Source of the DNA: Lingula anatina
Taxonomy: Eukaryota > Animalia > Brachiopoda
Reading direction: 5' to 3'
NCBI GenBank assembly: GCA_051362555.1
Contig: CM120649.1
Location: 13,330,001 to 13,394,000 of the forward strand
DNA length: 64,000 bases
Both the position numbers and the translations under genes were made by a program. The notes under the pieces are model-generated. The model did no database searches. It saw only the letters and a list, made by a program, of their open reading frames with translations, and was not told the origin of the DNA. Positions 41,846 to 64,000 of the stretch are shown in pieces. Position 1 is the stretch's first letter; every line of letters begins with the position of its first letter.

Positions 41846-42084
41846 AATTGGGCTCCCATACTTAGATCGATTCATCTGGATCGACCTAACTCCCTGGGGA
41901 TTCACGCTAAATTGCTCAAGGGGTGTAAATGTCTGTCAGCCCTACCGAATCAACTAGGATAAAGATAATTACCCCATAACAGCTTTACTAGGCGTGACAG
42001 TCATTTAAGCCAGTTAAGTTCATCGCAATTTATTGAGACTCCCAAGGGAGATAGATCAATCCAAATATTTGTGGGAATGGTCCC
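41846..42084. mobile_element. Harbinger-like MITE, family copy B (inverted), in the promoter of precursor copy 1
   Basis: Reverse-complement match to the 20656 and 60449 elements (GATCGACCTAACTCCCTGGGG...TGAGACTCCC...GTGGGAATG); absent from the homologous promoter of copy 3 (about 47540-47560). Confidence 0.75.
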
Positions 42085-42229: not shown

Positions 42230-44187
42230 ATGACGAACATGTATCTGGCATTGAGTGCGCTGTTATGTGGCGCGTTTTTCGAGGTAATGTAGAAAAAGGT
42301 AGGCCCTATTTTAGGCCTATCGATTAAATGTTTCATCGATTTTATACTGGGATAGTCCTTGGTCTCTGTTATCAAAATTCATCGGTGCTGTTTTTAACTG
42401 ATATAACAAATGCGGTTCATATTTTAATTCTAAAGTAGCGGAAGCATGATACTTCTCATCCTTTCCCCGTTACCCACTCTTTTTAAAGTAGGCCCTACGT
42501 GTCCCATTTGTACCTAATTGTGCGGGGCCAACGTGGCAGTGTTTCTTGGCACACGGACACAGCGTCAATTTTATAGCTTGCGCTATGTCCATGGTGATAT
42601 GTCTTTTATGTTCATAGACGGATCTGTTAAAGTGGCTTTGTTCCCCCCACCCTTACCCCTTGATTTACATGTACTGTACATCTGACAACTTTTGTGGCGT
42701 TATTGCCGCAGTTTTATCCGATTATCCGTTTTCCGTAATCTTCCATGTATTTTTTATTTGTTTATTTATCTATTTTATTTATTATGCCAAAAACGGCAAT
42801 CTACTTGACTGCATTCACCTCCATTTTTAGCTGGTAACGGAGACCGCAGCGCTGCCTCCCACGTTAGCACCAACTGATCCTCCTCTTCCGTGTCTACCTT
42901 TCTGTGCGTCCAGGGACCCAACAATGGCTCCACCCACACCACCCACGACTACACCCTTCTGGTGGAATTGCCGTTTTCCTGACCAATCGAGACCTTGGGA
43001 ACACTGCCCCAGTGGGAACTGTGTCGGACCAGGACTGAGGTACGTATGCACGTAATCGTCAGCCTCCCCCCTCTGCCCCCATCAACAATGATCGTTGCTC
43101 ATTCAACGGAATTTTTTTTTTTTTTCAATGCATTCAGTATTGTTGAACAAACAAATTTTGACTCAATGGCTTAAAATTGTAACGACTTGTGTACATGTAC
43201 AAAGTGAAAATTAAAAAATTAAAACCTAAAAGTTAAAAAGTATAGTACGGGACGATTAAAGCATGCCATTGCGCGTTCAACTTTTATACAGCAAAATATT
43301 TGTGCTGATAATCATAATAATTAAAGCTTTCCTAGAAATTTCTACAATTTCAGACAATGAGAAAAATTTATTAACCCTATTTTGAATACTTACATGTACA
43401 TTTAAGTGCTACTTTTTACCTTCACCAGCGAGTTACAGTCCCTCGATCTCTCTTCATTTTTGGTTATAGCCAAACCTTCGTAAGCATAAGAGAAAGGTGC
43501 TGCAATCTACAGTATAATCAAAATTTGGCGTAAAAAGGTCTAAAACTTATAGTGTGACTTAGGGAGCATTCACATCGAGAAGAGCCGAGGTCTAGTAAGG
43601 CCGCGACCTAAATATGGCGGACCTACATGAAAGGAAGACTAATCCTGTAGTGGTCTCTCCTCCTCTCACACGCCTCCCCACGAGTTGTCCCTCGACCGGT
43701 TGAATTGAGCCGAGATTTAATTACTGTGCCCCTGCAGGGATAATGCGTGAGGAGGTGTGTGAGACGCGGAGAGACTATTACAGGATTAGTGTTCTTCCTT
43801 TCATGTAGTTCCGCCATATTTAGGTCGCGGCCTTACTAGATCTCGGCTCTTCTAGATGTGAAAGGGACCTTAATATAATGGAGACCCGTCATCCTTTGAA
43901 TGCGTTGGAGGTGACTTATCAAGGTCATTCAATAGCATTAACCCGCATCTGTCACATCGGTCACATTATACGGACTTTCCATCTCTTTCTCCAGGTGCGT
44001 CGACACAGAGTCAGTCCTAATTCGTCCTCCCATTGAACCGACGCCGCCTCTTCCAACAAGGACAACCACGCCAGAGCCGACTACCCTCCCCGGTCCCATG
44101 CCGCCATTGCCTCCAAGCCGTGCCAGGAGGTGTTCTCCCTACCCACAGTGGTACCAGTGTGTCCCCGTAGAGCAGATTATAGGATAG
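42230..44187 (+). CDS. Secreted Pro/Thr- and Cys-rich putative peptide precursor, copy 1 (151 aa)
   Basis: Exons 42230-42283 (MTNMYLALSALLCGAFFE), 42831-43039 (LVTETAALPP...PFWWNCRFPDQSRPWEHCPSGNCVGPGLR), 43995-44187 (CVDTESV...PPSRARRCSPYPQWYQCVPVEQIIG*). GT-AG introns, phases 0 and 2, AATAAA at 44283. Confidence 0.85.
43562..43869. mobile_element. Foldback Harbinger/Tourist-like MITE in intron 2 of precursor copy 1
   Basis: About 125-bp inverted arms (TTCACATC...TCTAGTAAGGCCGCGACCTAAATATGGCGGA / TCCGCCATATTTAGGTCGCGGCCTTACTAGA...GATGTGAA); TTA on both flanks. Confidence 0.85.
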
Positions 44188-44884
44188 ACAGACTATGGAC
44201 TTGAGCCAGTGATAATCTTCTGGAGCATTTCTTGTTTGAATTAAAATCTGATTTTTTAAAATACATTGTACAATTGTATTACAATAAAGCGGATAAGTAC
44301 ATTTGGTAAGCGTTATTTGGTACTTTTTAGACAAATAAATAAAGACTCTTTGGCATGGAAGAATTCACTTTACTGCAATGGTCAAAGTGAAAGGGGTATT
44401 TATAGGAATACAGTCATTATAAGGTATCTGAGAATGCTTCTGCTCGGCATGGTATTACAATGCGCTCGTATGATGAACTGTACATTTCCTATAGCTATTA
44501 AAACAGTAAACAAGTACTAGTGCTACCTGTAAGACGACCATTTACGCAAGCCTCGCTTGGTTAGACGTGTATTCTGACATGCACTACACGGAAGGTCACA
44601 ACTGAAGATTTAAGGGAAGGCCAATAATCACTGATAACTTTAAAAACCGAACATATGGCGCGTGGTTTTAAAATGGTATTTACACAACTTGCCATGGATC
44701 AGTAGTGAACCAATGAGGGATACAAATAAAACATACATATTTTATATGCATTTTAAAGACCCGTGCCTCCACCAAACCTAATATGTGGAAATGAATTGAA
44801 ATAAAATGCAGTATAAAATTGATTTGTGTGGAATCTCGATATAACGTTACTTGATGATGAGCATCTACGAAGACGACGTCGACG

Positions 44885-44890
44885 TATAAA
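44885..44890 (+). promoter_or_regulatory. Putative TATA box of precursor copy 2
   Basis: GACGTATAAACG about 80 nt upstream of the ATG, at the same position as in copy 3. Confidence 0.55.
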
Positions 44891-44966
44891 CGTTCCCTTA
44901 TTATTATCATCCATTCCTGACAGCTGGTTTATTCATGTGAGTGACGGTCTTGACGTGTTACGTGAA

Positions 44967-46079
44967 ATGATGAACATGTATCTGGTATCGAGTGCGCTTT
45001 TATGTGGAATGTATTTCAAGGTAACGTAGAAATACGTATTTTTTTTTCTATTTTAACGTCTATGTTGGAAGAGTCGCAGGTCAGGTATATGTCACCAAAA
45101 TTTCTTAATGTCTTAGAAAAGATGAAGACAGCATTTACTCCACAGCACTGACCGCTATCATTATTTAGCAATCATCTTAACAACGTTTCTTGTAACACTG
45201 ACATTGCGTAATTAATTTGTTCCACGTCCATGTTGATTATTCTACTGTATGTTCTATGTTTCTTGACAGACGGATTGGGCAGTGCCTTTGCCCCCCCCCC
45301 CCCCTCCAAAAAAAAAAATGCATTTGACGACGGTGGTTGGGTTATTTCCAACAGATTTATCTCACCATCCTTTTTCCATAGGGTTTCTTTTTTAAGTCTC
45401 TTTATTACTAAATCTTGTTTCTATATGTTATCTTTTAAGAAGGGATCTAGTTGACAGCATTCACTTTCATTTTCAGTTGGTTACAGGAGCCGTAGTGCCA
45501 CCCTCAACGACTAGACCACCAACAACCACAACCACCACTACTACAACAACAACAACAACAACACAGTTCTGTTGTCTTTGCTACTTCCCTGACGGAACTC
45601 AACCTTGGGAATACTGCCCCAGTGGGAAATGTGTCGGAGAAGGACTGAGGTAAGCGGTCACGTGATCGTCACACCCCGCTCAACAATCACTCTTGCTCAT
45701 TTAACGGAATTTCACTAATATAACATATGCATTTTGTGCTACTTGATACTGCTTGGCACAGGCACACTTGGACTCATGAGACGATCGAGGTAAATACAAT
45801 ACTTAAGAACAATGTGAATACAATACTTAAATTATGCAAGATACCTTCACTGTTACTGTAACTGTTATGGTAAAGAGAGTTTCCTTTTCCCTCACCAGGT
45901 GCCTCAGCATGTATGGTAAGACGCCTCCACCAACAACGACTCTTTCGACAACGTCAACCACGCCATGGACGACTACCCTCCCCGGTCCCATGCCGCCATT
46001 GCCTTTAAGCCGTGGCAGGAGGTGTCAGCCGTATCCAAGGTGGTATCAGTGTGTCCCCATTGAGTACATCATAGGATAG
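44967..46079 (+). CDS. Secreted Pro/Thr- and Cys-rich putative peptide precursor, copy 2 (135 aa)
   Basis: Exons 44967-45020 (MMNMYLVSSALLCGMYFK), 45477-45649 (LVTGAVVPP-polyThr-QFCCLCYFPDGTQPWEYCPSGKCVGEGLR), 45899-46079 (CLSMYG...PLSRGRRCQPYPRWYQCVPIEYIIG*). TATAAA at 44885, AATAAA at 46170. Confidence 0.85.
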
Positions 46080-46275
46080 GCATCCAGGGACTTGAGACAA
46101 ATACGATCCTCGGGGGCACTGATATTTGAATGAATGGCTGATTTGTTAAATGAATGTGCATTGTATCACAATAAAGATAATATGTACATTTGCTAAGCGT
46201 TACTTCGTTTATTTGAAATTACACTGAGAATTTGACAGAAAAAAATCACTTTTTTTGCAACGATTTAGGTGAAAG

Positions 46276-46385
46276 CACCCTGAGCTTCAGAGATAACTTG
46301 ACACTAAGCTCTTCACTATAGCCTATCTTCATCGTGTCAAGTGAAGAGCTTCTATAGTGTCAAGTTATCTCTGAAGTTCAGGGTG
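46276..46385. mobile_element. 110-bp hairpin MITE with an 8-bp TSD
   Basis: TIR CACCCTGAGCTTCAGAGATAACTTGACACTA / TAGTGTCAAGTTATCTCTGAAGTTCAGGGTG; flanks GGTGAAAG and GGTGAAAA; empty site in the paralogous segment at about 49508. Confidence 0.85.
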
Positions 46386-47571
46386 GGTGAAAAGGGTAAC
46401 TGTAGAATTGCAGTCAATAAAATTAAGGTATGAATGAATACTACTGCTTTTCAGCATTGCACTACTGCTTGAGTGCTCATGTACGTTTCACATTAAAACA
46501 GTAACAAGTATTTTGTTGAAAGCAGTACATTTACACAAATCGTGCTGGGATATGAAGGTGCGTAAACTATTAGCTTTAATTCCATTAATATTCCAATAGG
46601 CAAATGAATAAAACATCAGTACTGTTTCATATAAATAATTAGGATGATAAGCAATTTGACAAGCACATATAAAAAGTAAGTTAGAAAGAATGAATAAATG
46701 AATAAGTAAGTAAATTTACTGTTACCAATTATTTTCATTCTGTCTTGCCGTACAATGTATGAATTCTTCAGCTCTCCTTGATACCGATATAACACCGCCC
46801 CTTGGACATAATTCGTTATTATGTCCAACACTGCCCAGAACCTGACAGCTGAGCACACGCTTAAAGGTATACTGTGATGAAAAAACGGGTTAAAACTATC
46901 CTTTAGGTGCCCAAAGTCTTCTGGGGCATTCTTGTTTGAATTAAAATCTGATTTGTTAAATACATTGTATAAATTGTATTGCAATAAAGCGGATACATTT
47001 GGTAAGCGTTATTTGGTCTTTTTTAGACAAATAAATCAAGACTCTCTGGCATGGAAGAATTCACTTTACTGCAATGGTTAAAGAGAAAGGGGTATTTACC
47101 GGATTACAGTCATTATAAGGTATCTAAGAATGTTTCTGATCGTCATGGTATTACAATGAACACGTATGATGAACTGTAGGCCTACATTTACTATGTAAAC
47201 AGTAAACAAGTACTTCTAGTGCTCCCTGTAAGACGTACATTTACCCAAGCCTCGTTTGGTTAAACGTGTATTCTGACATACATTACAACGAATGTCACGA
47301 CTGAAGGTTCAAGAAAAGGCCAATAATTACTGATAACTTTAAAAACCGAACATATGGCGTATCGTTTTAAAGTGGCATTTACACAAGTTGCCATGAATCA
47401 ATGCCGGATAAAAAAATAACACAATATGTAATATTAACATATAAAGGACGTGTGCCTCCACCATGCATATCTAATAGGTGGAAAACAAATTTAAATATAC
47501 AGTATTAGTTTAAGTGGTACAGGCATCTTGTAATAACATTATTTGGCTGAAAGACATCCCTGAAGACGACG

Positions 47572-47577
47572 TATAAA
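47572..47577 (+). promoter_or_regulatory. Putative TATA box of precursor copy 3
   Basis: GACGTATAAACG about 100 nt upstream of the ATG; copy 1 has TGTAAA at the homologous site (42109). Confidence 0.55.
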
Positions 47578-47670
47578 CGTGCCTTTGTTATCATTGTCAT
47601 CCGTCCCTGACGACTGGTTTATCCATACGAGTAACGGTCTTTCAGACATTGATATACGTAACATTGCTTA

Positions 47671-49310
47671 ATGATGAACGTCTATCTGTTAGTGAGTGCG
47701 CTGTTGTGTGGCCTGTATTTCGAGGTAATGTAGAAATACGTATTTTATCGCTTTTGATAATGTTTTATCCATTTTATGCTGGAATAGTTCTTGGTCTCTG
47801 TCAACAAAATTTATGGGTGTTTTTCAATTGAAATATTATTGTGCGTTCAAGGACCAACGTGACAACGTTTCTTGACACTGGCGCTGCGTCAGTTTTTTAA
47901 ATTGCTCCATATCCAAGGTGATTTTAAGCCACACAGACGACGCGGCGTGATAGCGTTATCTTCCACTGTGTTCAACCAAGGGGGTAGATAGCTAGCCTTC
48001 CTTTATTATACAGCCGACCTTTTCAATTGACGTTATCCTTTCTATACGTGCCACACACTTCCAGGCATATATATCAATAACATGAGCTGACTCGGCAGGA
48101 ATAAAGGTTCCGTCACACCTAGCGTAAAGAGGTGCGTATGAGTAATGTAGAAGACGTCTATTATACGCACAAATTCGAGCGTATGGAATCACCGTTTCCA
48201 GCGTATAAGAATGAAGCAGCATATGGAATTGATTTTGAATATACTCAAACATTTTATTTCCGTCTGGGTATTCGAACGTACACCGACGTTTGTCTGCGGA
48301 CACGAGGCGAATACGATCTAAGGTCAGCGAATGGGCAAATACTTTTATGCTTTTGATCTACACGCTAGGTGTGACAGTGCCTTAACATGTCTTTACTTTC
48401 AGCTGGTCACGGGAACTGACGCGCCCTGGCCAATGCCAACGCCAAAGCCAACAACAACACCTTTCTGGTGGTATTGCAGATTCCCTGACGCAACTAAACC
48501 TTTCGAGCACTGTCGCAGTGGAAGATGTTCTGGATCAGGACTAAGGTATGCGGTCACGTGGTCATAATTCGTCACGTGTTCAGTGAGGAGTTTTCTGAGT
48601 TGGCCTACCGGTACACACCCGATGGGTTAAAATAAATTATTGAATTCTTAACTCAGCAACCAACCTTGTTCATTTGATGGGATACTTTACTTCATATTAC
48701 ATGATTGTTGACTAACGTTCCTCGTGGTTTTACTTAACACATAAATATAATTTCTCAGTAGATTATGTAGCATCGCGCTGCTTATTCATCTGATACCGTT
48801 TTGACAGGAATGGTTTTGCGCTAGGAGCCGTAATCCGTTCCGAATTGATTTGTAAAAGTGTTATAATTAACCTTATATTACGACTAGCCCTATAGCCTGT
48901 ACTGATCATATATGGGACCCTGGGCTTCCATCCTTGTACTTTATAGGACTGCTATTCCTGACGCGACGGCAAATTCCGAAAGCGACGGAGGGGAGCTATA
49001 AAGTCATCCACCTGTCACATAAGTCACTGTTCACGGATTCTTCTTCTCTTTTTGCAGGTGTGTCAACATACATTCAGTTGTAACCCGTCTTCCCATAGAG
49101 ACGAAGACGCCGACTGGACCGACAAGAACGCCACCGACAAGAACTCCACCGACAAGAACTCTATCGACAAGGTCGACCACGCCATGGACGACTAAACTTT
49201 ATGGTTATACGTCGACGCCATTGCCTCTATTCCGTGCTAAGAGGTGTACCCTTAGTACGTCGTTTCCATTGTGGTATCGGTGTGTCCCCGTTGAGTACAT
49301 CATAGGATAG
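47671..49310 (+). CDS. Secreted Pro/Thr- and Cys-rich putative peptide precursor, copy 3 (149 aa)
   Basis: Exons 47671-47724 (MMNVYLLVSALLCGLYFE), 48403-48545 (LVTGTDAPWP...PFWWYCRFPDATKPFEHCRSGRCSGSGLR), 49058-49310 (CVNIHSV...PLFRAKRCTLSTSFPLWYRCVPVEYIIG*). TATAAA at 47572, AATAAA at 49407. Confidence 0.85.
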
Positions 49311-51487
49311 GTACATGTATCCCGGGACTTGAGACAGATACGATCCTCTGGGGCATTTATCTTTGAATGAGTAGCTTATTTGTTAAATGAATGTGCATTG
49401 CATCACAATAAAGATAATATGTACATTTGCTTAGCGTTACTTCATTAATTTGAAATTGAACACTGAGACTTTGACAGGAAAAAATCACCTTTTTTGCAGC
49501 GATTTTGGGTGAAAGGGGTAGCTACAGTCACAAAAAGGTACGAATGAATACTGCTGCTTTTAAGCACGGTACTACTTGTGTGCTCATGTACATTTCCAAT
49601 TAAAACAGTGAACACGTATTTCCAGTGCTGAAAGAAATCTCGCAAATAGGCAAATGAATAAAACATCAATACTGTTTCATATAAATAATTAGGATGATAA
49701 GCAATTAAGAATGAATAAATGAATAAGTAAGTGAAATGAATAAGTAAGAAAGAATGAATAAATGAATGAATAAGTAAGTGAATTTACTGTTACCAATTAT
49801 TTTCATTCTTGTCTTGTCTTGTCGTACAATGTATGAATTCTTCAGCTCTCCTTGAAACCGATACAACACTGCCCGAACCTGACATGCGATGAGCACAAGC
49901 CCAAAGAAATTTTCAAACTCAGCTGTGACCGTAAACTCATCGTAAGGGGGCTTTAAGCCATCGCATGACAGTTGATGGAGTTTCTCAGGCTCCGATAGGA
50001 GAGAGAATATCCGTCCCCTTGCCTACCCCCCCCCCCCCTCTCGCAGACAAGGGGGATGGGAGATGTGATAAAGTGCACGTGTAAAAAGACATGTGTTGGA
50101 GTTCAATGTGAATATAATATCATTATAACTCAATTTACTGACGAGATGTGACAATGTTTACCTATTCTTCCTTCGGCAACGTATCCTATACTACGGCTGT
50201 GACTTACCAGAAGGTGAATAGATATATGATTAATAATGAAAGTAAAGCACTGACGATATATTAACGAAATATTCAGAAGGTCAAACCAGTAATTGATGTC
50301 AGAGGCGGATCACACCCGCCATTAGCACAAAGGCACATATAATAGGCGGAATATATCTAAACTGAGAAGTCAGACTGACTAACCTTCATTCGGAAACGCT
50401 CTGCAAGGATGTACTCTCTTTGTGTAGCGTTACTGGCACTGTTAAGTTCCCAAGTCGTGGCATACTGGCAAAATCGACCAAGACCGCCCTTGGTGAGTAT
50501 AAAGTTGTTCCTATCTTGGACCAAAGATCAGAATGAATTGCACCATTTTTAATACCTTCAAATGTTTGTGCCTTTCAAATAAATGTATGTTTTTAAAATA
50601 ATTTTAAGCAATTCTATTTACTTCCATAAAATCAAGCTGATAGGAAATAAGACAAAATGAGCACAGAAGGTGTTTTAGACCTATACACAATTTGTCAAGC
50701 AGATTATAATTAATAAATGAATGAAAAAATAAAAGTGAAAAAATTATTTGCCGTCTCCTCGAAGACATTTCAAGACATGTGTTTCATATCTTGCTTGAAC
50801 AATTTTTTTCTTCTAGTCTCCATTATACCCTGGGATACCACAAAATCATTACGAACACGTCTGGAATGTCTTAAATGTAATGTATTGCCATTAATTATGT
50901 AGTCACTCTAAACACAAATGTTTTGATTTATTAGTCATTAAATAAGGTAATTCGACTTCTTATCACCTAATTAGATTACTTATTTACTTGTACGTTGTAT
51001 CTTAAAATTATGCAGTGAATAACAGCTCTAGGGTAACGAAAGTGACAGAAGACGGTTCGCTTCCCCATTAACACCTTTATTTCTGCTAAAAATACCTTTT
51101 GAAAAAAAGGGAGGGGTCACCTGCCCCGTTGCATTTGCCCTCAACATGATTAAATATATAATCTAGTAACTTTCTATTGAACAATTTTATAACGTTCATT
51201 GTACCGATATGTGTACCTATTAATTCTTTTTCAGACGCAATTTTACGGAAGGGCACGGAACAATCAGCGCAAGAACACAAGGGAAGCCGTGAACGTAACA
51301 ATTTTTTCTGTTATGCTTGTCATGCCCGACCCTTTACGTATTCCTATTCCGTACTTCCTGTCGCGTATTCCCCATAAATTTGAAATGTAATTTTAAAACA
51401 AGCAAGCGTCTAGTTTAGCCGCATAAGCGCCTTCAGAGACAAATAGAAATCATACACCAGTTCGTGAAATAATTACAGATGAGCTAA

Positions 51488-51776
51488 TTTGCAGCAAATT
51501 TGTTGCAAATTTGCAAGAACTCAGAACTTGAATACTTTCTTGCAAACTGACTGCAAACTTGAGATGTTCTTGCAAATTTGCTGCTAGTTTTCCACAAATT
51601 TGCCAGAACAAAAATACTTTCTTGCAAACCTGCTGCAAACTTAAGTTGTTATTGTGAATTTGCTGCAAATTAGCAGCAAGACAAATTTTTTCTTGCAAAC
51701 TCCTACAAACTAGTTGCCGCAAACTTTTAGTTTGCAACAAATTTGCTGCAATTTTGCCGCAGTATTGCTGCAAACT
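51488..51776. repeat. Array of TTTGCWGCAAA / TTGCAA(A) quasi-palindromes
   Basis: Many interspersed TTTGCAGCAAA, TTTGCTGCAAA and CTTGCAAA motifs in both orientations over about 290 bp. Confidence 0.75.
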
Positions 51777-54700
51777 TTCCCTTGTGCTGAGGATTGTGAT
51801 TATAAGAATGCGTTGGAAACAAGAGGAGGCATTTCAATTTGTTAAATTAAAAGGGAATCATATGTGTGATTGTTTCACTTGGAGAGCAGTTCGGTCTGAG
51901 CAGACCAACATCTCAGATGTGTTGTGTTTGTCAAGATTAAAAAAAAAAAATTTATAGAGTGAAACTACAGCAGGTCATTGGAGGGTACAATACAACAGTT
52001 GCACCATGAATGTTATAAACAATGTATCAAAGGTACTTATTGTTCAACAGCCTAGGCCAACCTCCGAAGCTTTTACCTTTGACGTCTATCCACTACCTAA
52101 TGGGGGGACCAGGTACACCGTATACAACTCTCCCGAGAAACCGCGAGACTGTGACCATACCCTGACGCAGGTAGGCCTAAATAAAACGTAGAACACGTAT
52201 GTATCGAGTTGACATTTTCTCTTTTATTTTATCATTCTTTATTTGAAACATAAAGGATCCATAAAACATGTGACACACACTCGATTCACGAAGCATTTTC
52301 ATTAAAATTGTCCGAAGTTTCTTATGAGGCAGGGTATTTTCTTTGGCACCAATTGCCTAAAAGCGATTTTCATTTAATGGACTTATTTCGTCTTCTTATA
52401 ACATATTGATTATCGTTTTATCTCGAGAGATCACCAATAACTTATACCAGTACTAATAACAGAAATCAAATCAAACGCTATAATTGAAAGAAAATAGTTA
52501 TAACTTTGTGATGTTTTAGCCTGAAGACGGAGACATAGTACAGATCTGGTCTCCTATGTCAGCGGAAGGCGGTGGCTATCTTCGAGTAACTAACCAAGTC
52601 GCGCCAAATGGCGGGTACTACGTCGATTCGAAAGGATATATAGAAGATTCTAATAGTATGTAGCATTTTGAGTTACAATAACGTTTTTTCTCCAACATGA
52701 TCTAATTCATAAAATTTGCTTGATACTTTCCTTGGTGTGGGTGGGTGGGGGGTCATACATCGTAGCCTTTTTAAAAAATTATTTAAGTTCTTCTCAGCAA
52801 GTAGAAAAAGTATCGGACTTTGACCTATTTTTCAAATTAATCATTGAATTCTTTATCAGCTTTGCAAAGACAAATATGATATTCCATCATATCCTTTTTG
52901 TTCCACCTTGAAAAATACGATATCGACATCGTTTTATAAAATTTCTTTTAACACATTTGCCTTCCTTATCAACTCAAACCCAACAACTCTCCAAATACCA
53001 ACTTTTACAGCAATTGTGTTGATTTTACAGCCAAGTTCCGATGGCGGACGACATTTTCACATCCGCCCACAATCCCCCTTATTGACATACTGGACCCATG
53101 CAACGCCACAATGGATTCCGTTGTTTTGCGCATGAGCAAATACCAGTTTCTTGGAAACGTGACAGAAGATGGATGGTACATCATTACCTACTCCTATTGG
53201 CCACCCCCTTTCCCGACAATAACTGCCGTAAGTCTATGACAGAATAATGCTTCGATTTATTAAATGTGTTGTCTGAGCAGTTTGTTGTCGCTGTAGTTAG
53301 ATGTCAGGCATGCTGAATGTATAAAAATTTATGTATGTAAATTGTTCTCAAATCACTCCATTTATTCGATTATTCGGCCCTTTGTTCATCTACTAGTTTG
53401 TTTAGTTAAATAAACCTTTTTTTTACATTTTTTCAAACTTATGTTCCGTACAGTTCAGAATGATTCGTACTGAAGTCGATCCGATTCTCATTCATCATAA
53501 AACAGATCATCATTTTCCAATTTTATGTTTTGTTTCATATGATTTATATTATTATTATATCATTTATATTATATTTATATCATTTATATTATGCCGCGAT
53601 GAGCATTACATTCCCTACGTAAAGATAGATGGTCTGTGTAGCAGTTAAATTGTCCGTCATCCATACAAGTTAGGGTAAGCAATAAGCAAGTCGATCAAAA
53701 TCTAGGGCAGGGTTTACCAGCAAAAGTCAATGGGCATCGGACCTTGTTTCACAACAGGGGACTATCTCATATATGACACTGAAAAAGGATTATGTTAAAG
53801 GGTTGTTACGTCACGCCTTAAGGTCAAACGCGGACGGGTATCTTAGTTAAGAAAAGAAATGCAATCAAATCGCGCATTCACTATTTCAGAATATGGAAAC
53901 ATCCTCGCCGCCGACAGCTGACCAGATTTGGAATCCGACGCTCTTTGGACATCATTTGAGGTAGCCTTATGCTTGTCATTCTTAAGGTCAAATCTATGTT
54001 ATTGATTCTTCTAGCATTAATCAGTACATGTATGTACTGGGACGGCATTCTATCTATCATATAGTCTATCAGTTTCCTTTGTTTTTTTTTTGATGCAATT
54101 ACTCTATGGTCATTGTCAATGTTCAGAGAGTGGTGAAAAGAGCTAAGATATTGGTGCATAGACCCCCTTTTTAAAAGTGAATATGGTTTTAGAGGGAATT
54201 GAGAAATTGCATATTCAAAGAATGGATCCAGGTTGGTAAGTATAAACTGTATTATTACTGACAGATCTAGCTGTCTGTAATTTGTAGATTGGAGAAGGCA
54301 ACATCCTCTGGTCATCCGTCCAACATCTTCCTTAACGCGAAAAGATTCGGACAGATTGAAGGATATCATGAAATGGGACATCCGGAAGTCGCCAAACTAT
54401 GGCCGAATCCGGGTACTCTGTTCTTCATGTACGACCAGGGACTAAAATATAACTAAGAATATACATATTTTTCGACGAACATAAATTTAACAGATAAACT
54501 AAAAAAAAAAAAAAACAGGAAGGTAAGAATCCTTCTTGTATTTTAGAGTGGGTGTAATTACAGTTTTGTAGCAACTTTCAAGGGAAACTTCAGAATAATA
54601 TCTTAACACGAAGCTCTCTGTAATATAGCTTGTATGTAGTATAGTAGAAAAATGAATGAATAGAGATCGATGCTAAATATATGAATACATCAGAACCGTT

Positions 54701-55531: not shown

Positions 55532-58500
55532 TCATGCGTTCGTTTCAGGTCTTAGTCGAATCTGAAATAAAACGCAAAATTTAAAGTAAATAAACTGTTT
55601 AGAGTTATAATGATTAAGGTGTCTTATAAAACTGGCATCTGGTGTTTTTCTAAACTTTCACAACAATAACACGCACGTCTAGCTAGCTGTAAATATCCAA
55701 TACTTCGTATCATTACTTTTAAAACATATCATCAAAAATATACAGATGAATATTTAACCACATTTTGCCACGGGACACGCAAAAAAATATGAAACACATT
55801 CAAAATCACACTTACCGGATTGTGGAAGCCGTTCCCATACCCCACATGAGGACGTGATATTCTGAATTCATGATCTGGTTTCAAGTTGCCAGTAAGCATG
55901 CTTTCCCACCCGTTAGAATCCATGTCCGGATATCCTAAAATGTAAATAACAATTTCAAATAAATATATGTCATAGATGAGTCGAGATTCAAATCAAATCA
56001 AGGCACTAGCAATCCACCAAGGAGAAATATGGACTGTCCCGAGTCTCGATCGCCAAGGCGAGATTGAAATGCAGACATACATAGAAACTAACTGTTAATC
56101 TGAGATTATCAAAAAAGCGTTTAATATCGACCTTAAACAGACATTACATCATGGAGTAGACTGATTTAGCATCATGAATCGGTTTGGATCCATATTAAAA
56201 TCGCGTTAAATCAGAGATTCATTTTCGATGCAAGAACCGAAAAGCTACGACTCACGTCACCCATCTCATTTATAAACTTGTTAAAAACTGTAAACGTGCT
56301 CAAACTATACTATGCCACTAAATATGTATCCATCCTGACGCCTTTAATACGCATATACCTACCGTGACGCCCTCCATAATTGACGTAGCCTCCATTTCTG
56401 TGCAAATAGTCACTGCCTGAGCTGCTGCTCCGACTACTGCCAGAACTACGAGTTCGACTGCTCCCCGACCCCGGGTCTCGGCCTCTTCCCATGTACTGCC
56501 AGTTGGGGAAATACTTGGGATGGAAAACTCCACTGGCTGGTCCGTATGCTCCATGTAAAAAGCTGGAATGAAATGCGAATACATCGATATGCAGAAACAT
56601 TATCAAAAAAAGGTCAGAAGTCAGAAGCTTTATTACGTCATGTCAACATCAAAGTGACGTCATGTAATGCTGGGCTAAGCAGTGAAGGTTGGATATTAAA
56701 TCTCGTAGACAAAGATAATAAAATAAACAAATAAATAAAAACATAAACGAACTGAAAATAAAAAAAATAAATAATCACGATTCAAACGATTCTTATTACT
56801 TCTTAATGAATGTTCAATGAAGTAATCCGGAACTTTAGAATAGTTAATACATTCTCAAATCATAGGCACAGATTTCGCACTCACTTATCATATCTAGTTG
56901 CCCGTAGCTTCTCCTTCTTTGCTTTCCTCTTTTTGTAAATGATCACAATGACGAGGATGCTTATCGCCACGATGAGAAGAATGCCGCCGACTGTGCTGGC
57001 CGCCACTATGGCTATTTCATCATTTGTCAGCCCAGATTTGGTCTGGCATTGGTTACCGCTGTAGCCTGTCACACAGCTGTCAATGTGTAAAGAATGGAAG
57101 ATTATATTTGAATAATAACGTGGCAAAAGACGGTGAGTGGCAATAGGCGGTATAACTGATAGATAGAGAGACAGATAGATATAGATAATGCAATATATAC
57201 ATCTTTATCTATCTACTTATCTGCCTGCCTGCCTTCACACACACACACATACACACTGACATACATACAAACATTCAGACATTCTAACAGATAGAAACAT
57301 TCAACCAAATAGTGCAAACACATAAACCAATTTTAATATGCATGGACATCTCTTAGAGAACACAAGACACCCATACGAATCCATTAAAACAAGTTGTTCA
57401 GACAAAAGATGGTAAAGGCTTTACTTACGAACAGTAGCCATATGCACTGCCATCACAACCGCCCCCGTTCTGGCAACCGAGCACCGTACATTGTTGTAAC
57501 GGCACTGAAAATGGCAGATCAGGTGAAGAGTCATCAGTCTTTAATTTTTCCCAAAGTGCGACACAACTGCATTTATAAATATTTACTATTTGTCGTGTTT
57601 GAGTTACGCCCACTAATATATTACAAAAAAAAAAAAAAAGAATAAAAATCGATAAAAAAATTGTCACAATGATCATCGATATATTTCCATTCGTACTTAC
57701 CACCGTCTACTACCGGCGCTTCTATGACTCGAAAGCGACTGTTTTCGTAAACTATGACGTAGTTGTTGGGTATAAGCTGTTGCAACATGTGTTCTCTGAA
57801 AGCCTGCGTGGTAGCGTTTACATCGCCCCCCGTTGTGTTCACTTTTACCGTGTACTGAACTATAAGACTACCGTCACTGAAAATTTAAATGTATAACTAG
57901 AGTTATATTATATTATATTATATTATATTATATTATATTATATTATATTATATTATATTATATTATTTATAATGCATGCAGACTTTTATGCAAAAGACGT
58001 TAATAATATTTTGCACAATGCATTACTGTCACGACTCACTATACCATTTCACTTGATAGGAAGATATTTAAGGAAGTGATAAAACGTTAAGAATGGACGG
58101 AAATTCTAGAATTATTTAACGAACTGTTTAGTTGGAACCAACGTATTCTGAAGGGAAGTAATTAAGGGAAATTGCCTGTATTCCGGAAGACGACAAAGGA
58201 ATGAAAATACCCCTTAGACTTGATAAGAGTTTCATCAACGTTCTTGCCTACCGTTACCCCGAAATGTTTACGGAAGAATAATTGCAATCAAGGTATCTGA
58301 AGTTAAGGTTTTCGTTGTTTTTAATAAAAAAAAAAAAAAAAAAAAAAAAAACTTTGAAACCTACATAAAAAGCTTCATATTAATTTGTTGAGCGAACCGT
58401 GTACCTACCGCAAGTTCATTATAACTAAACTCACAAAACCTGCAAAACCGTCATGGAGTGAGACCAGCTGAAATAAAGATGGAAATCAATTACACATACA

Positions 58501-61500
58501 TGTGTATGTGTATAGCATATGAAGTATTACTGTAATTGCAATAAATGGAACATTGATTTTACGAATTCTAGGAACTGTATCACAAAACCCCAGACACCCG
58601 AAGACAGATGCCTTTGGATCATTGCATCTTAATATTGTGAGCACATTCAAAATGCCAGCCATTTCCATAAAATACTGGTAAATTTTCATCACGCCATGCC
58701 GTGCTCACATGCTAAGATAAATATATAACATACAGGTATTACATCATTAACGTCATCGGAGATCTATGACCATTAGGATACATTAAAGTCTTGACCACCA
58801 AACTGGCAAACAAATTAATTTCGATGCAAAGAAGACATCATTTCAACGTCACTGTGTAAATGTGACGTCACTGTATAAATGTGACGTCACTGTATTAATG
58901 TGACGTCATCGTGAAATCACATCACGCCGTGTGTCTGTTTGGGTGGGTATACTCACCGCTTTTCTAAGTACGGTATACTCAGCAGAACCCACTATCAAGT
59001 AAGGAGCTGGGTTCACCACATCCAATGTTATGTTCACTAAAATAAAAAATAAAAAAAACGAGTTTGTCCATGAATTAGTGACATGAAATAGAAAGAAATA
59101 ACACTAATTTTCCAATCTAAAGGAATTGACTTACACACGCACATGAAAGTCATTTTTAGAGATTATAATAATAATTTATCGTTAGTCGAGTCTAACTTCA
59201 TTAAAGTGTGTTCTGTACAGACTTTGCAAATAAAATGCAAAATTAAAAATATTATTTAAATTAAAAATGTGTTAATTGTAAAGAGAAATATTTCTAATTA
59301 TAACATTCAGTAAAGTCTAAGTTGTTTAATCAAAATTATTCTAAAAAGATGAGTTTTTATTTTTTAGCAACTGCTGAGCTTATATTCCTTTGTTCTGATA
59401 TCGATGTGAAGTATTCTTTCTCCAGTTACAATCTATAGACCGGGCATCGCATTTTATCTGCGCCAGGTCAGTGTGTCTGGTTCCTGGTAAAAACAGCCCA
59501 TTGTTCTTACCTCCGTAGTTGACCTCCGTGTCACATGTGAACCCGTTTCCAAAGTATCCACTGTTACACGTGCAACTGAAACTCCCAATAGTATTGATAC
59601 ACGCTGCGGCAGTATGGCAGCCACCTCGGTTGAAGATGCATTCATCGATATCTGGAAATGAAAATGAATGGGGATTTATTAGCTTATTAACATGGTTTTA
59701 TCTTTACTGGAAAGCGAATGTGAGCAATCGGGCCATCAGGACCAGAAAAAGCTTCTCAATTTAGGTCTCTCTTTTCTCTGTCTCTCTCTCTCTCTTTTTC
59801 AAACACACACACACGCACACACACATGCACAAACATCCTCTCTTTGTGTGCGTGTGTGGAAGTGAGAAGGGAGGGCGATCCATTTGCTATGATCAATATC
59901 TACCCAAAATCATGATGGGTGGAAACTTACTTGTTCTCAAAAAATAAATTGAAAACACGAGATTAAGTGGTGGTTTGACAACAATTAATCAAAATAAATT
60001 ACTACTCTCTTAATCCATAAAAATCACTGCCCTGTTTGTGATGTGATAAGTCACGTGACCTGGGTAAGAGCCAGGGGCGTGAAGCGGAAGCTATGTATGA
60101 CCATGTATGCGACGTGGGATGCAAGACATGGACTATCAAACTGGTTTGGATAGACTGACGTACCTGATACCGCGCCTTGTATCAAGGCCGGTGTCCGTCT
60201 CACTCTGTAACTAGCCCTGCTGGTGGTATCGATCAGAACGTTATTGACCCGTTGAAGATTGGCCAAAATGTACACTGAGATGGCGCTGATGGTTTCGTTG
60301 TCTGGGCTCGTCGTGTTCACCAGTACCGTGTAGTAGACGGCGAGTCCGTTATCGTTTCTGAAAATGTAGGAAAATTCCACCGGGTATGAAGTTTCAATAG
60401 GAACGTAGAAGGTCGTTTGTCAATAGTTTGAAAATACATTGACACTTTGACCCCATTCCCACAGATTTTAGATCGATCTAACCCTGTGGGGAGTCTCACT
60501 AGATTACTGTCAGCTTAGCCGGCTTAAGCGTCTGTCCCGCCTACTAAAAGCTGTAAGGGGGTAATTAACTGTCGTGCGCGCTCGGCTGACTGCAAATTAG
60601 CGTGCACCCCCAGGGAGTTAGGTCGATCCGGATGGATCGATCTAAATCTCTGGGAATGCACTCTTTGATTTTAGACCTGTCGGGGGAGTAATGAGATGCG
60701 TTTTAATATACAGATCTGCAACGTATTTAATGCATTTGTTTTAGGTTTATGAAATGTTGTAACACACAAGCAGACGGCGCCAAATATAGACCTATGCTTG
60801 TCATCTGATTACGTTATTTTAAAGAATCAGTGAGGTCAACATTTAAGATTATGTAGTTCACAAGTCACACAATGTGAGGTAAATTCAATATAATACAATG
60901 CAATGCAATACAATAAAAAAATATATTTTGTGGTACCCGTTGTTTTATATACCCTAATATCTTCGATAAGCAAATTTTACAGGGCAACCCAATAAGTCTT
61001 GTCTTTTATGGATCTTTCTCACCATCAACTCCATTTGATCTAGGCTGCTACAAGTGCAAAATACTACTGTTTTATAGCTTAGAATTAGCATTCATAGACT
61101 TTATAATTGCCTGCACTACCAGCAGGAACAGCTCTTTACAATAACTTACCTTATCTCAGTAATCTCTACCCGGTTGAAATCCGTGAAATTTGCATAGAAC
61201 TCGTTCAACTGCAAGTTGCGAAATAATGCATTTTGAATATATTTGTAATGTTGTTCCGTGTTAGTTTGAACATTTAGAACTTTTTATTCTTATGCACAAT
61301 AAATATCTAAAAAATGTCCATAGTCAATGGTTTAATTTTTATTTTCAATGGTTATCGATGATTATCTTGATAACAAAAGAGGCAAAAATGTTTAAACGTA
61401 TCAGGCATTCAAAAATAAAACCAACTTTATTTAATTTCTGTTCCTTTTCTGCAAATGTCTTACCGTTCTCACTAACAAGGAATAATCCGTGCTTCCTGGC

Positions 61501-63891
61501 TGGTACCGAGAGGCGGAGTACTCGTTGTCGAAATTCATTAACACTGAAATAAGAGAACAAGATATAGCAACCAAGTCGGCAATTGTGGTAGAAAAATAAT
61601 CACCATATGATAGTAGATATAAATGAGTCTATCTTGACTCAATGGCATCAGAATTCGGGTCACATCAGTTAAAACATTGTCACATGCGACACTTGACCAG
61701 TGCTTGGTTTGTGTGCAACATGGTACCGCTTATAAGGCGTATTATTGCGGTGGAGAGAAACACGTGCATACCTTTACTTAAATTTGTACGACAATCTAGT
61801 CATAATCGCCTAAATAACTTATAGATAAATCGATGCAACTGCCATGTTTTAACGAATATAGTAACATATTGCAGTTTTGTTCAAGGGTATGTTTCCAAGG
61901 GTATCCATACCTTTAACTCCCTGTAATGGCCTACAAACAATTCCATCCCCGGTGAAGGCGTTTCTACAAGAGCAAGTGTAACTTCCGGGCGTGTTAGTAC
62001 AGTCAGCATTGGGACTGCAGTCATGCGATGACGTGCATTCATTGATATCAGTACACGCGAGTCCAGTTCCCTCAAAGCCCGGTTTACATTTACAAACGTA
62101 GGAGCCCTCCGTGTCCGTACATGTGGCGTCAGCATGGCAGGGCGAGGCAGTGCATTCGTTAATATTCGAGCATGTCCGACCGTCTCCTGTGTAGCCGGCG
62201 TCACACGCGCACGTGTAGGATCCCACCGTATTGGTGCACTGCGCGTTAGCGTGGCATTGGTTTGACGTTGAGCATTCGTCTATATCTAGAGAAAACACAA
62301 ATGGTTGTATATATATATATCTTTTTTTAATGAAAGCATGTACCTTTGTTGCCAAATGGTAACACATGCGTTATTTTAACCTAACTTAATTACAGGGTTG
62401 ACGGGGAGTACACCTACTGCAGTCAAAAAGTATATGGGGCTTCTTTCCTGTAAATGATCAATGCACTTCTTTGAAAACTTTCAAGAATTCACCTTGCGTC
62501 GTTATTTAACATTATAAACACAATATCGAGTTGCAGATGGCATGATGCCATCATCAATGACTGTCCACGTACCTCTGCACGTTCTTTGGTCACTCTGATC
62601 CAACACAAAGCCCGTCCTGCAAGTACAGTTATAGCTGCCACCTAGGTTATTGCAGTCGCTCGTCGTGCGGTTACAGTTGTCTGCTCCCGTTGTGCATTCA
62701 TTGATATCTGTGATTGTTAATACAAAAATAATAACTTGTAATATAAAACGAAGCATGCGAAACGTCCTGATAGTATACCTCAGGTTCTTATAATGACATT
62801 CATTGATATCTGTGATTGTTAATACAACGTAATATAAAAATGAAGCATATGGAACGTCTCAATACCTCGAGTCCTAATCATAACCACTGGAACATTGTGG
62901 TTTTTGCAATGGACAACAATTATATTTCACTCTCCAACTCATTTCAAATTTTAATAAATACATAAAAAATAACAATAAACTTATTTTAGTTCTAAAATCC
63001 ATTTAAATTACTCAGTAGACCAGGGGACTTTAATAAAAATTAGCGAATCAATTAAGCATCGGTTTATTGGTGTTTTTTTACGGTCGTCATATCTCACCTT
63101 CACAAGCGCCACTGCTTCCAAGGAAATAGCCAGAGAGACAGTAACAAACAGGAACAGATGCATTGCACAGTCCTTGGTTACAGGTCAGGCCCGCGTTAAC
63201 ACATACAGTTAATGTTGCGTTGTTCACTGAAATGTAACAAATTAAACAAATGCTCATTGAAGAATCTATTTTAATTCTGGTCTTTTTATAGATTATCGCT
63301 ATGGTACTTATAAAATGGGCGTGAAAACTTGCTTGAGTTCAAGTGTGAGGGTTATGTTCACGTTTCTATTTGATGAGAAACGTTAAAACAGATAACAGAA
63401 TACATGTATGCCAGTGGCGGATTTAGAGGGGGGTTGGGGTCAGGGGTGTCCTGATCTCCCCTTCGATTTCTGGTCTCCTCTTGTAATTAGAATTTTGACT
63501 AGCTGAATCATAGTTCTAAACCGTACCAAATGGCACCGTTCGCCCTCTAAAATACCAAAAAATTACGGGGCCCTTCAGCGGGTCCCGAACCCCACGCCAT
63601 GTGGGGGTGGGGGGTGGGGGGGGGGAGGGTCAGCTTCACATCCGCGGATCCCCACTTCAAATAATCCTGGATCCGCCCCTGTATGCTGATATAAAACATG
63701 TAGATCAAAATAAAATAATAATTGGCAATAATGTGTCAATTCTGCCGTGCGTAGATCCTCACCTTGATTGCACGTAAATCCATCAAGAGCCAACTGATAG
63801 TCAGAATTGAAGCAGGAGCACGTGTAGCTCCCCACAGTGTTAGCACAGTCGTGGTCACAGCGGTCTGTCTTCAAGGCACACTCGTCAACAT
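55532..63891 (-). CDS. Mucin/fibrillin-like single-pass membrane protein with calcium-binding EGF repeats and two SEA modules; 5'-partial
   Basis: Exons (minus strand): 63763-63891, 63098-63226, 62573-62707, 61911-62285, 61464-61543, 61150-61208, 60164-60357, 59511-59651, 58957-59036, 58409-58467, 57701-57876, 57429-57504, 56885-57076, 56363-56562, 55816-55934, 55532-55561 (TGA). cbEGF consensus D(I/V)(D/N)EC...C.N..GSY.C.C; SEA-like LRDGSLIV; juxtamembrane EGF; [29 protein letters not shown] followed by KKRK; Ser/Gly-rich tail ending RPETNA*. Confidence 0.9.
58846..58908. repeat. 19-bp tandem repeat in which each full unit carries TGACGTCA
   Basis: TGTGACGTCACTGTATAAA units; TGACGTCA at 58863, 58882 and 58901. 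Confidence 0.85.
60449..60663. mobile_element. Harbinger-like MITE, family copy C
   Basis: CATTCCCACAGATTTTAGATCGATC...GATCGATCTAAATCTCTGGGAATG; collinear with 20656-20869; TTT on both flanks. Confidence 0.8.
63412..63681. mobile_element. MITE with CAG(G/T)GGCGGAT TIR and a 5-bp TSD
   Basis: CAGTGGCGGATT...GATCCGCCCCTG; TATGC on both flanks. Confidence 0.8.
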
Positions 63892-64000
63892 CTGAAACAT
63901 ACATTTAACAGCGTCTTCGTCATTCTTTCTGGCAGTTAGTTTCGGTTTCGTTTCTGATGACGACCTTACAGAAGGTAGTGCATGTAGTAGCATATAAGGT

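What the first reader, a model, noticed from the sequence alone, without database searches (positions are those of the whole stretch)
42230..49310. Tandem family of three intact precursor genes for a putative furin-released, C-amidated disulfide-loop peptide
Seen: three 3-exon genes with the same exon phases (54-nt signal exon, phase 0, then phase 2), all open despite many indels in the Pro/Thr tracts. Shared layout: signal peptide; Pro/Thr tract; C-x-FPD-x3-P[WF]E-x-C-x-SG-x-C-x-G-x-GLR-C; Pro/Thr tract; RARR, RGRR or RAKR; then CSPYPQWYQCVPVEQII-G*, CQPYPRWYQCVPIEYII-G* or CTLSTSFPLWYRCVPVEYII-G*. Established: R-X-[KR]-R is the furin/proprotein-convertase consensus, and a terminal Gly is the PAM amidation donor. 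Inference: each gene releases a 17-20-residue amidated peptide with one disulfide, a variable loop and a conserved WY-x-CVP-x-E-x-II-amide tail, plus an O-glycosylated 4-Cys pro-domain. That fits a signalling, pheromone, defence or toxin system. I do not recognise it as any named family, and the ORF track captures only fragments.
Basis: partly seen in the sequence, partly recalled or inferred. Interest (0 to 1): 0.88.

Follow-up and report, generated by a model that had tools for sequence, protein, structure and literature searches.

The report
Lingula-specific ring-peptide precursor gene family
Three real, side-by-side genes of the lamp shell Lingula encode likely secreted precursors that are predicted to release a short ring-shaped, amidated peptide, probably a signal molecule, with no described relative found outside Lingula.

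Summary
Three 3-exon genes (151, 135, 149 aa) have GT..AG introns, the same exon phases and open frames. RNA reads confirm both introns of gene 1; gene 2 has perhaps one fragment; gene 3 has no reads in 8 runs. The only true homologs found are three Lingula anatina RefSeq models, one auto-named 'spore coat protein SP85'. All 6 sequences keep R-x-[RK]-R directly before the ring Cys and end in II-Gly-stop. The peptide is under purifying selection among paralogs (p 0.007-0.015), yet its ring differs at 4 of 8 residues between gene 1 and its reference counterpart, against 7 of 143 elsewhere. Best reading (0.45): convertase-released, amidated ring-plus-tail peptide acting as a signal; cleavage, amidation and target are inferred, not shown. 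It is neutral, so a classical cationic antimicrobial is unlikely. No significant Pfam, PDB, fold, neuropeptide-catalogue, shell-proteome or literature match was found. The 4-Cys module has a weak, non-significant likeness to the last third of a kringle (best E 0.1). The precursor design is textbook; the family appears undescribed.

The parts
42230..42283 (+). g1 exon 1 (18 codons, hydrophobic N-terminus, likely signal peptide)
   Evidence: joint 42283^42831 in 19 reads (X1) and 12 reads (X3)
42831..43039 (+). g1 exon 2: Pro/Thr tract with an extra Cys pair, first three Cys of the 4-Cys module (first Cys at 42969)
43995..44187 (+). g1 exon 3: fourth Cys, Pro/Thr tract, RARR, peptide, Gly, stop
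   Evidence: joint 43039^43995 in 5+5 reads
44119..44184 (+). g1 RARR (44119-44130), predicted 17-residue peptide CSPYPQWYQCVPVEQII (44131-44181), Gly (44182-44184); predicted amidated one-disulfide monoisotopic mass 2048.95
   Evidence: processing inferred
44967..45020 (+). g2 exon 1
   Evidence: the 4 reads laid here in X2 carry g1 letters
45477..45649 (+). g2 exon 2: poly-Thr tract, two extra Cys, 4-Cys module (first Cys at 45579)
   Evidence: about 2 of 27-28 reads in X2 carry g2 letters
45899..46079 (+). g2 exon 3: RGRR (46011-46022), predicted peptide CQPYPRWYQCVPIEYII (46023-46073), Gly, stop; predicted mass 2167.04
   Evidence: g2-type reads 45925-46114 in X2, possibly copies of one molecule
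46917..47178 (+). orphan copy (90% identical) of g1's 3' UTR and downstream DNA, without a coding part; likely trace of a lost fourth gene
47671..47724 (+). g3 exon 1
   Evidence: matches N-terminus of XP_013383335.1
48403..48545 (+). g3 exon 2: short Pro/Thr tract, 4-Cys module (first Cys at 48475)
49058..49310 (+). g3 exon 3: RAKR (49233-49244), predicted 20-residue peptide CTLSTSFPLWYRCVPVEYII (49245-49304), Gly, stop; predicted mass 2386.19
   Evidence: no reads in 8 of 8 runs laid
44283..44288 (+). AATAAA after g1 (a second at 44334; g2 at 46170; g3 at 49407), candidate polyadenylation signals

Best explanation
A tandem family of Lingula genes encodes likely secreted precursors that are predicted to be cut by a furin-type convertase after R-x-[RK]-R and amidated at the terminal Gly, releasing a 17-20-residue one-disulfide peptide that likely acts as a signal on a Lingula receptor (hormone, paracrine cue or water-borne cue). 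Shown: gene structures, open frames, splicing and strand of g1, conservation pattern. Inferred from established biochemistry: entry into the secretory pathway, O-glycosylation of the Pro/Thr tracts, convertase cleavage, amidation by PAM, the ring disulfide. Inferred from the conservation pattern: the constant tail CVP[VI]E[QY]II-amide would be the receptor-activating part and the variable ring would tune specificity; the pro-piece with the 4-Cys module would be co-secreted as a carrier or as a second active unit. Glycans near the site could regulate cleavage, as reported for human prohormones.
For: R-x-[RK]-R abuts the first ring Cys, and II-Gly-stop ends the protein, in 6 of 6 sequences. In the six-way alignment 8 of 10 columns of first-Cys-plus-tail are invariant, against 2 of 8 in the ring, 15 of 25 in the 4-Cys module and 3 of 17 and 11 of 32 in the Pro/Thr tracts. 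The C-terminal peptide shows purifying selection: about 7 of 43 nonsynonymous against 6 of 11 synonymous sites changed for g1-g2 (Fisher p 0.015) and 7 of 42 against 7 of 12 for g1-g3 (p 0.007), while intron identities lie 0-7 points above shuffled baselines. g1 is spliced and transcribed from the + strand at modest depth in 3 of 3 runs of study P1 and at trace level or not at all in the 5 runs laid from P2 and P3, i.e. restricted expression. The peptide is neutral and hydrophobic. Basic-site cleavage and C-terminal amidation were confirmed by mass spectrometry in a related spiralian, a nemertean (PMC8557429 section 6). Glycosites near convertase sites modulate processing in human peptide hormones (PMC7441158 passages).
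Against: No peptide-level data: nothing shows cleavage or amidation. The six sequences are not independent (P0001 is the counterpart of g1, P0002 of g3), and the pairs tested share g1. g2 against g3 shows 0 synonymous and 8 nonsynonymous changes in the peptide (not significant, p 0.14), which is not purifying. About half of each tract is Pro/Thr/Ser (52-70%), more like a mucin than a typical neuropeptide precursor, and the 4-Cys module is itself conserved, so the peptide may not be the main product. No receptor is identified. The family was not found by motif search in two neuropeptide surveys that included L. anatina. g3 has no reads, and g2 perhaps one molecule.
Confidence: 0.45

Rival explanations
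1. The protein works whole (or nicked but held together) as a small mucus or extracellular-matrix glycoprotein: two aromatic-rich disulfide modules on O-glycosylated Pro/Thr spacers bind chitin or other glycans of mucus, cuticle, chaetae or periostracum.
For: Pro/Thr/Ser make up 52-70% of both tracts; both Cys modules carry Trp/Tyr/Phe; g1, g2 and P0003 have extra Cys that could cross-link. Small Cys modules on Pro/Thr linkers are typical of carbohydrate-binding proteins (recalled). Lingula has chitinous chaetae and many novel short shell proteins (PMC4595640 passages).
Against: No chitin- or cellulose-binding Pfam family at E up to 1 for any exon or full-length homolog. None of the 3 RefSeq accessions is in the supplement of a 2026 L. 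anatina shell proteome, while a control accession was found 8 times (PMC13425148). This reading does not explain a tetrabasic-type site placed exactly before the ring or the invariant terminal Gly. Read depth is modest in the runs laid (tissue unknown).
Confidence: 0.27
2. The peptide is released and amidated as above but acts on non-self targets: a protease-inhibitor-like loop, deterrent or antifouling agent in mucus, with the ring changing fast under pressure from microbes or settlers.
For: The ring differs at 4 of 8 residues between g1 and its reference counterpart against 7 of 143 elsewhere (Fisher p about 0.001). Copy content differs between this window and the reference, with signs of gene loss and mosaic copies, as in birth-and-death defence families (recalled).
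Against: Side-chain net charge is -1 to 0, unlike membrane-active antimicrobials. The ring region was picked after seeing the data, and g3's ring is identical to its counterpart (0 of 11 differ). No significant hit to any inhibitor, defensin or toxin family.
Confidence: 0.2
3. The genes are young or decaying pieces, for instance of a kringle-containing gene, and the basic site and Gly persist only through recent common descent.
For: The 4-Cys module aligns without gaps to the last third of kringles (C-x11-C-x4-C; HGF kringle E 0.1 for g2's module alone; 8 of 9 weak hits of the profile are kringle-containing chains). g3 is silent and g2 nearly so in the runs laid. The Pro/Thr tracts evolve fast (dN/dS 0.45-0.92).
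Against: All frames stay open despite many length changes; signal region, module and peptide together show purifying selection (p 0.003 and 0.001); g1 is properly spliced. The kringle likeness is not significant and Pfam gives no kringle hit.
Confidence: 0.08

Closest known systems
RefSeq models XP_013401948.1 ('spore coat protein SP85'), XP_013401947.1 and XP_013383335.1 (uncharacterized), Lingula anatina
   Same: Same family and layout; XP_013401948.1 differs from g1 at 11 of 151 aligned residues and XP_013383335.1 from g3 at 4 of 144.
   Different: No function or processing described in anything I could search. No counterpart of g2 was found; XP_013401947.1 has no counterpart in the window. 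The SP85 label is an automatic name with no Pfam support; that it stems from Pro/Thr and Cys content is my inference.
Ring-plus-tail peptide hormones cut from the end of a long precursor (calcitonin/CGRP, somatostatin/allatostatin C, natriuretic peptides, endothelin; features recalled)
   Same: Works-like analogy: signal peptide, pro-region, convertase site directly before a disulfide ring, hydrophobic or amidated tail.
   Different: No sequence similarity detected; ring of 8-11 residues between the Cys; mucin-like pro-region holding a second, conserved 4-Cys module.
The 72 spiralian proneuropeptide groups of PMC8557429 (44 in brachiopods)
   Same: Same animal group; same predicted processing signals.
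   Different: The family's motifs occur in no precursor of that paper's supplement; the 4 passages returned were unrelated proteins.
Kringle domain (HGF, plasminogen, apolipoprotein(a), tPA)
   Same: Spacing C-x11-C-x4-C and W-[ED]-Y-C before the last Cys match the last third of a kringle.
   Different: Only about 20 residues match, best E 0.1; the module is 25 residues with 4 Cys, against about 80 residues with 6 Cys (recalled); the three matched Cys pair with other parts of a kringle (recalled), so the bonding must differ; no Pfam kringle hit.

Membership tests
Convertase-processed, amidated peptide precursor (general kind) | N-terminal signal peptide | tested here: inconclusive
   Hydrophobic N-terminus, 14 of 22 columns invariant; no signal-peptide predictor available
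Convertase-processed, amidated peptide precursor (general kind) | Basic convertase site directly before the peptide | tested here: met
   R-x-[RK]-R in 6 of 6
Convertase-processed, amidated peptide precursor (general kind) | Terminal Gly as amide donor | tested here: met
   II-Gly-stop in 6 of 6
Convertase-processed, amidated peptide precursor (general kind) | Mature amidated peptide detected in tissue | not testable with these tools
   needs peptidomics
Described spiralian proneuropeptide families | Sequence similarity to a catalogued precursor | tested here: not met
   Exact-motif searches of the supplements of PMC8557429 and PMC6425005 (some files cut, wrapped lines can hide motifs) gave only unrelated proteins; no Pfam hormone family
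Kringle domain | About 80 residues, six Cys, triple loop (recalled); Pfam match | tested here: not met
   25-residue, 4-Cys module; no Pfam kringle hit at E up to 10; PDB sequence hits E 0.1 or worse
Kringle-derived fragment (ancestry) | Significant homology to the kringle C-terminal part | tested here: inconclusive
   Recurrent weak hits with matching Cys spacing, best E 0.1
Cationic antimicrobial peptides, including BRICHOS-derived annelid peptides | Net positive mature peptide; BRICHOS pro-domain (recalled) | tested here: not met
   Side-chain net charge -1 to 0 in 6 of 6; no Pfam family at all
Chitin- or cellulose-binding mucin-like proteins | Recognisable carbohydrate-binding module | tested here: not met
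   0 Pfam families at E up to 1 for 6 exons and 3 full-length homologs; binding itself not testable here
Lingula shell matrix proteins | Detected in the shell proteome | tested here: not met
   0 occurrences of the 3 accessions in the supplement of PMC13425148, control accession 8; the 2015 proteome (PMC4595640) could not be mapped by accession
Known small disulfide folds | Structural match of the 4-Cys module | tested here: inconclusive
   Model pLDDT 70, pTM 0.34; too small and uncertain for fold searches to decide

The most novel reading that the evidence does not exclude
A brachiopod-invented peptide signalling system: a two-module precursor whose pro-piece carries a miniature domain recycled from the end of a kringle, and whose released amidated peptide has a fixed tail and a fast-changing ring that encodes population or species identity, serving as a spawning or recognition pheromone in the Lingula species complex, with copies gained, lost and recombined between populations.
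Probability: 0.12. Interest if true: 0.78.

Novelty: new variant of a known kind. Interest (0 to 1): 0.45.

Why it matters
If the peptide is made, it is a lineage-restricted bioactive peptide family that similarity-based neuropeptide surveys of brachiopods appear to have missed and that RefSeq mislabels. It gives three exact masses to look for and short peptides that are easy to synthesise, so its role (signal, recognition cue or defence) is directly testable. The combination of constant tail, fast ring and copy turnover would make it a compact case of how new peptide ligands arise. If it is an uncleaved mucus glycoprotein, it is an ordinary orphan gene family.

Tried and rejected
No whole genome is held for this window, so copy number outside the window is unknown. 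No RNA holder was listed by the run search; the 9 runs came by species label, 8 of 9 were laid, and only about 6-30% of each was read. Pfam: 0 families for 6 exons and 3 homologs; one weak FIMAC hit (E 0.042, 1 of 6 members) ignored. The 1.84-billion-protein profile search gave 4 hits: 2 Lingula, and 2 repeat proteins (one from an Acidimicrobiales bacterium, one unnamed beta-propeller) that score by summing short repeats, rejected. The beta-propeller repeat hits are rejected for the same reason. Full-length AlphaFold model unusable (pLDDT 44). Fold searches with the module model: 0 of 5 Foldseek rows significant, best VIA-align Z 2.2. Atlas: one feature hit under the bar for the whole protein (0.78), none for the module, all structure rows TM below 0.5. 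Complex prediction of module with C-terminal piece gave no answer (score 0.02); it is no evidence either way. Literature: 0 papers hold any of 5 accession or gene terms or any of 5 motifs; topic searches listed nothing on this family by title or abstract start. The library lacks most subscription papers, and bioRxiv supplements are closed. Earlier scan findings: none. Endothelin and IGFBP likenesses are recalled only; cysteine spacing differs and neither appeared in the Pfam or PDB searches, so they were dropped.
Full report
Observation. Testing every GT and AG near the exon ends gives three open, three-exon genes on the + strand: g1 42230-42283, 42831-43039, 43995-44187 (151 aa); g2 44967-45020, 45477-45649, 45899-46079 (135 aa); g3 47671-47724, 48403-48545, 49058-49310 (149 aa). 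Exon 1 is 54 nt in each, and the intron phases are 0 and 2. Each protein has a hydrophobic N-terminus, a Pro/Thr tract, a 25-residue module C-x11-C-x4-C-x6-C whose fourth Cys lies just past intron 2, a second Pro/Thr tract, R-x-[RK]-R, and a 17-20-residue peptide with two Cys followed by Gly and stop. g1 and g2 each have two more Cys than g3. A six-frame motif scan and tblastn found no further coding copy in the window.

Organism and homologs. A profile of exon 2 found 3 proteins among 2,942 candidates of 122-2000 residues, all Lingula anatina: XP_013401948.1, auto-named spore coat protein SP85, XP_013383335.1 and XP_013401947.1. Searches with the module alone and with the C-terminal 40 residues returned 2 of 2 candidates each, both from this set. 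A word-free HMMER search of 1.84 billion representatives gave 4 hits: 2 of these and 2 unrelated repeat proteins. So the window is Lingula, L. anatina or a close form. How well these collections cover other brachiopods is unknown, so 'Lingula-specific' means 'not found elsewhere here'.

Expression. In runs X1 and X3, 19 and 12 reads skip g1 intron 1 and 5 and 5 skip intron 2, both GT..AG, all with the first mate on the minus strand, which fits a + strand RNA; X4 and X7 show only trace depth. The reads come from other individuals; three of their amino-acid changes (A24V, R46G, A51T) match the reference protein. At 95% likeness g2 and g3 exons had no depth in 4 of 4 runs. At 85% likeness, X2 laid g1-type reads on g2 exons 1 and 2, and 17 of them run on into g1's exon 3; X5, X8 and X9 laid none. 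X2 also has reads on g2 exon 3 (mean depth 11.6) with no listed differences; 6 begin at 46114 and 5 end at 45925, so they may be copies of one molecule, and no g2 joint was seen. g3 had no reads in 8 of 8 runs. Tissues are unknown and only about 6-30% of each run was read, so silence is weak evidence.

Selection. Across the six sequences, 8 of 10 columns of first Cys plus tail are invariant, 2 of 8 in the ring, 15 of 25 in the module, 14 of 22 at the N-terminus, and 3 of 17 and 11 of 32 in the tracts; the basic site is R-x-[RK]-R in 6 of 6. Intron identities among the paralogs are 0-7 points above shuffled baselines. The peptide shows fewer nonsynonymous than synonymous changes per site for g1-g2 (p 0.015) and g1-g3 (p 0.007); these pairs share g1 and the counts are small and rounded. 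g2-g3 shows the opposite, 8 nonsynonymous and 0 synonymous changes, p 0.14. Between g1 and its reference counterpart the ring differs at 4 of 8 residues against 7 of 143 elsewhere (p about 0.001, region chosen after seeing the data), whereas g3's ring is identical to its counterpart.

Array history. A 90%-identical copy of g1's 3' UTR and downstream DNA lies at 46917-47178 with no coding part before it, and g2 and g3 share their 3' flanks (83-91% in three blocks). XP_013401947.1 is g3-like over most of its length but has the shorter g1/g2-type ring.

Structure. The full-length model is unusable (pLDDT 44). The module alone gives a moderate model (pLDDT 70, pTM 0.34) with strands at its two ends; fold searches with it were inconclusive. 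Sequence searches of the PDB give one recurrent lead: 8 of 9 weak hits of the module profile (E 0.35-5.7) are kringle-containing chains, and g2's module aligns without gaps to the end of an HGF kringle at E 0.1, with the same C-x11-C-x4-C spacing. The kringle hits are related to each other, so they are not independent, and Pfam gives no kringle match. I give kringle ancestry about one chance in four.

Mechanism. I commit to a processed precursor whose product is a signal (0.45). The basic site sits exactly before the ring and the Gly exactly at the end in every sequence, and the piece between them is under purifying selection while the tracts drift. By established biochemistry (recalled) a furin-type enzyme would cut after R-x-[RK]-R and PAM would convert the Gly to an amide; such processing was confirmed by mass spectrometry in a nemertean (PMC8557429, sections 5 and 6 read). 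O-glycans near convertase sites modulate cleavage in human prohormones (PMC7441158, passages). A neutral, hydrophobic ring-plus-tail amide with restricted, modest expression fits a receptor ligand better than a membrane-active antimicrobial. None of these steps is shown for this family. Rivals: an uncleaved mucus or matrix glycoprotein (0.27), a released defence or inhibitor peptide (0.20), drifting relics (0.08).

Comparison with what is known. It works like ring-plus-tail hormone precursors but is a member of none that I could test. Its motifs were not found in precursors in the supplements of two neuropeptide surveys that included L. anatina (PMC8557429; PMC6425005, where some files are cut and only supplements and the listing were seen). 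Its accessions are absent from the supplement of a 2026 shell proteome, with a working control (PMC13425148, supplements only). The 2015 genome paper (PMC4595640, passages and supplement search) gave no match to the motifs or the SP85 name, and its shell-protein lists could not be mapped. Full-text searches for the accessions and motifs gave 0 papers; subscription papers and bioRxiv supplements were out of reach.

Verdict. A real, partly expressed, apparently undescribed gene family with a plausible and easily tested peptide product. The design is known and the family is new: new variant of a known kind, interest 0.45.

Noticed in passing
window 50409-53239 (+): Another likely secreted protein gene right after the array: a hydrophobic first exon at 50409-50493 followed by GT, and candidate exons near 52040-52172, 52520-52659 and 53021-53239; no meaningful Pfam match for the two stretches scanned, and almost no reads in 4 runs.
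   Followed up: partly
window about 55800-63900 (-): Multi-exon gene with calcium-binding EGF repeats (EGF_3 E 9e-33 for 61852-62370) and a likely transmembrane segment near 56900-57050.
   Followed up: partly
window about 3600-28000 (+): Scattered protein-like exons of one or more large genes (for example 4994-5278, 9965-10264, 20312-20680); the three scanned had no Pfam match above cutoff.
   Followed up: partly
window 43569-43862: Inverted repeat with 70-nt arms, 96% complementary, inside g1 intron 2; likely a small non-autonomous transposon. A similar palindromic element at 46276-46385 attracts many reads from elsewhere in the genome.
   Followed up: no
window 41849-42080, 20661-20866, 60453-60645: Dispersed repeat upstream of g1 with two inverted copies elsewhere in the window; hundreds of RNA reads lie on about 40 nt of it with loose ends, so it is a common transcribed repeat, not part of the gene.
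   Followed up: partly
window 5292-5386, 13651-14805, 25041-25225: Degenerate 24-nt tandem repeat arrays in three regions, one inverted relative to the others.
   Followed up: no
window 43996-44022 and 44158-44184: The residues after the module's last Cys and after the peptide's last Cys look alike in g1 (CV-x2-E-x-two hydrophobic), which hints at an old internal duplication; seen by eye and in a weak tblastn row, not tested.
   Followed up: no
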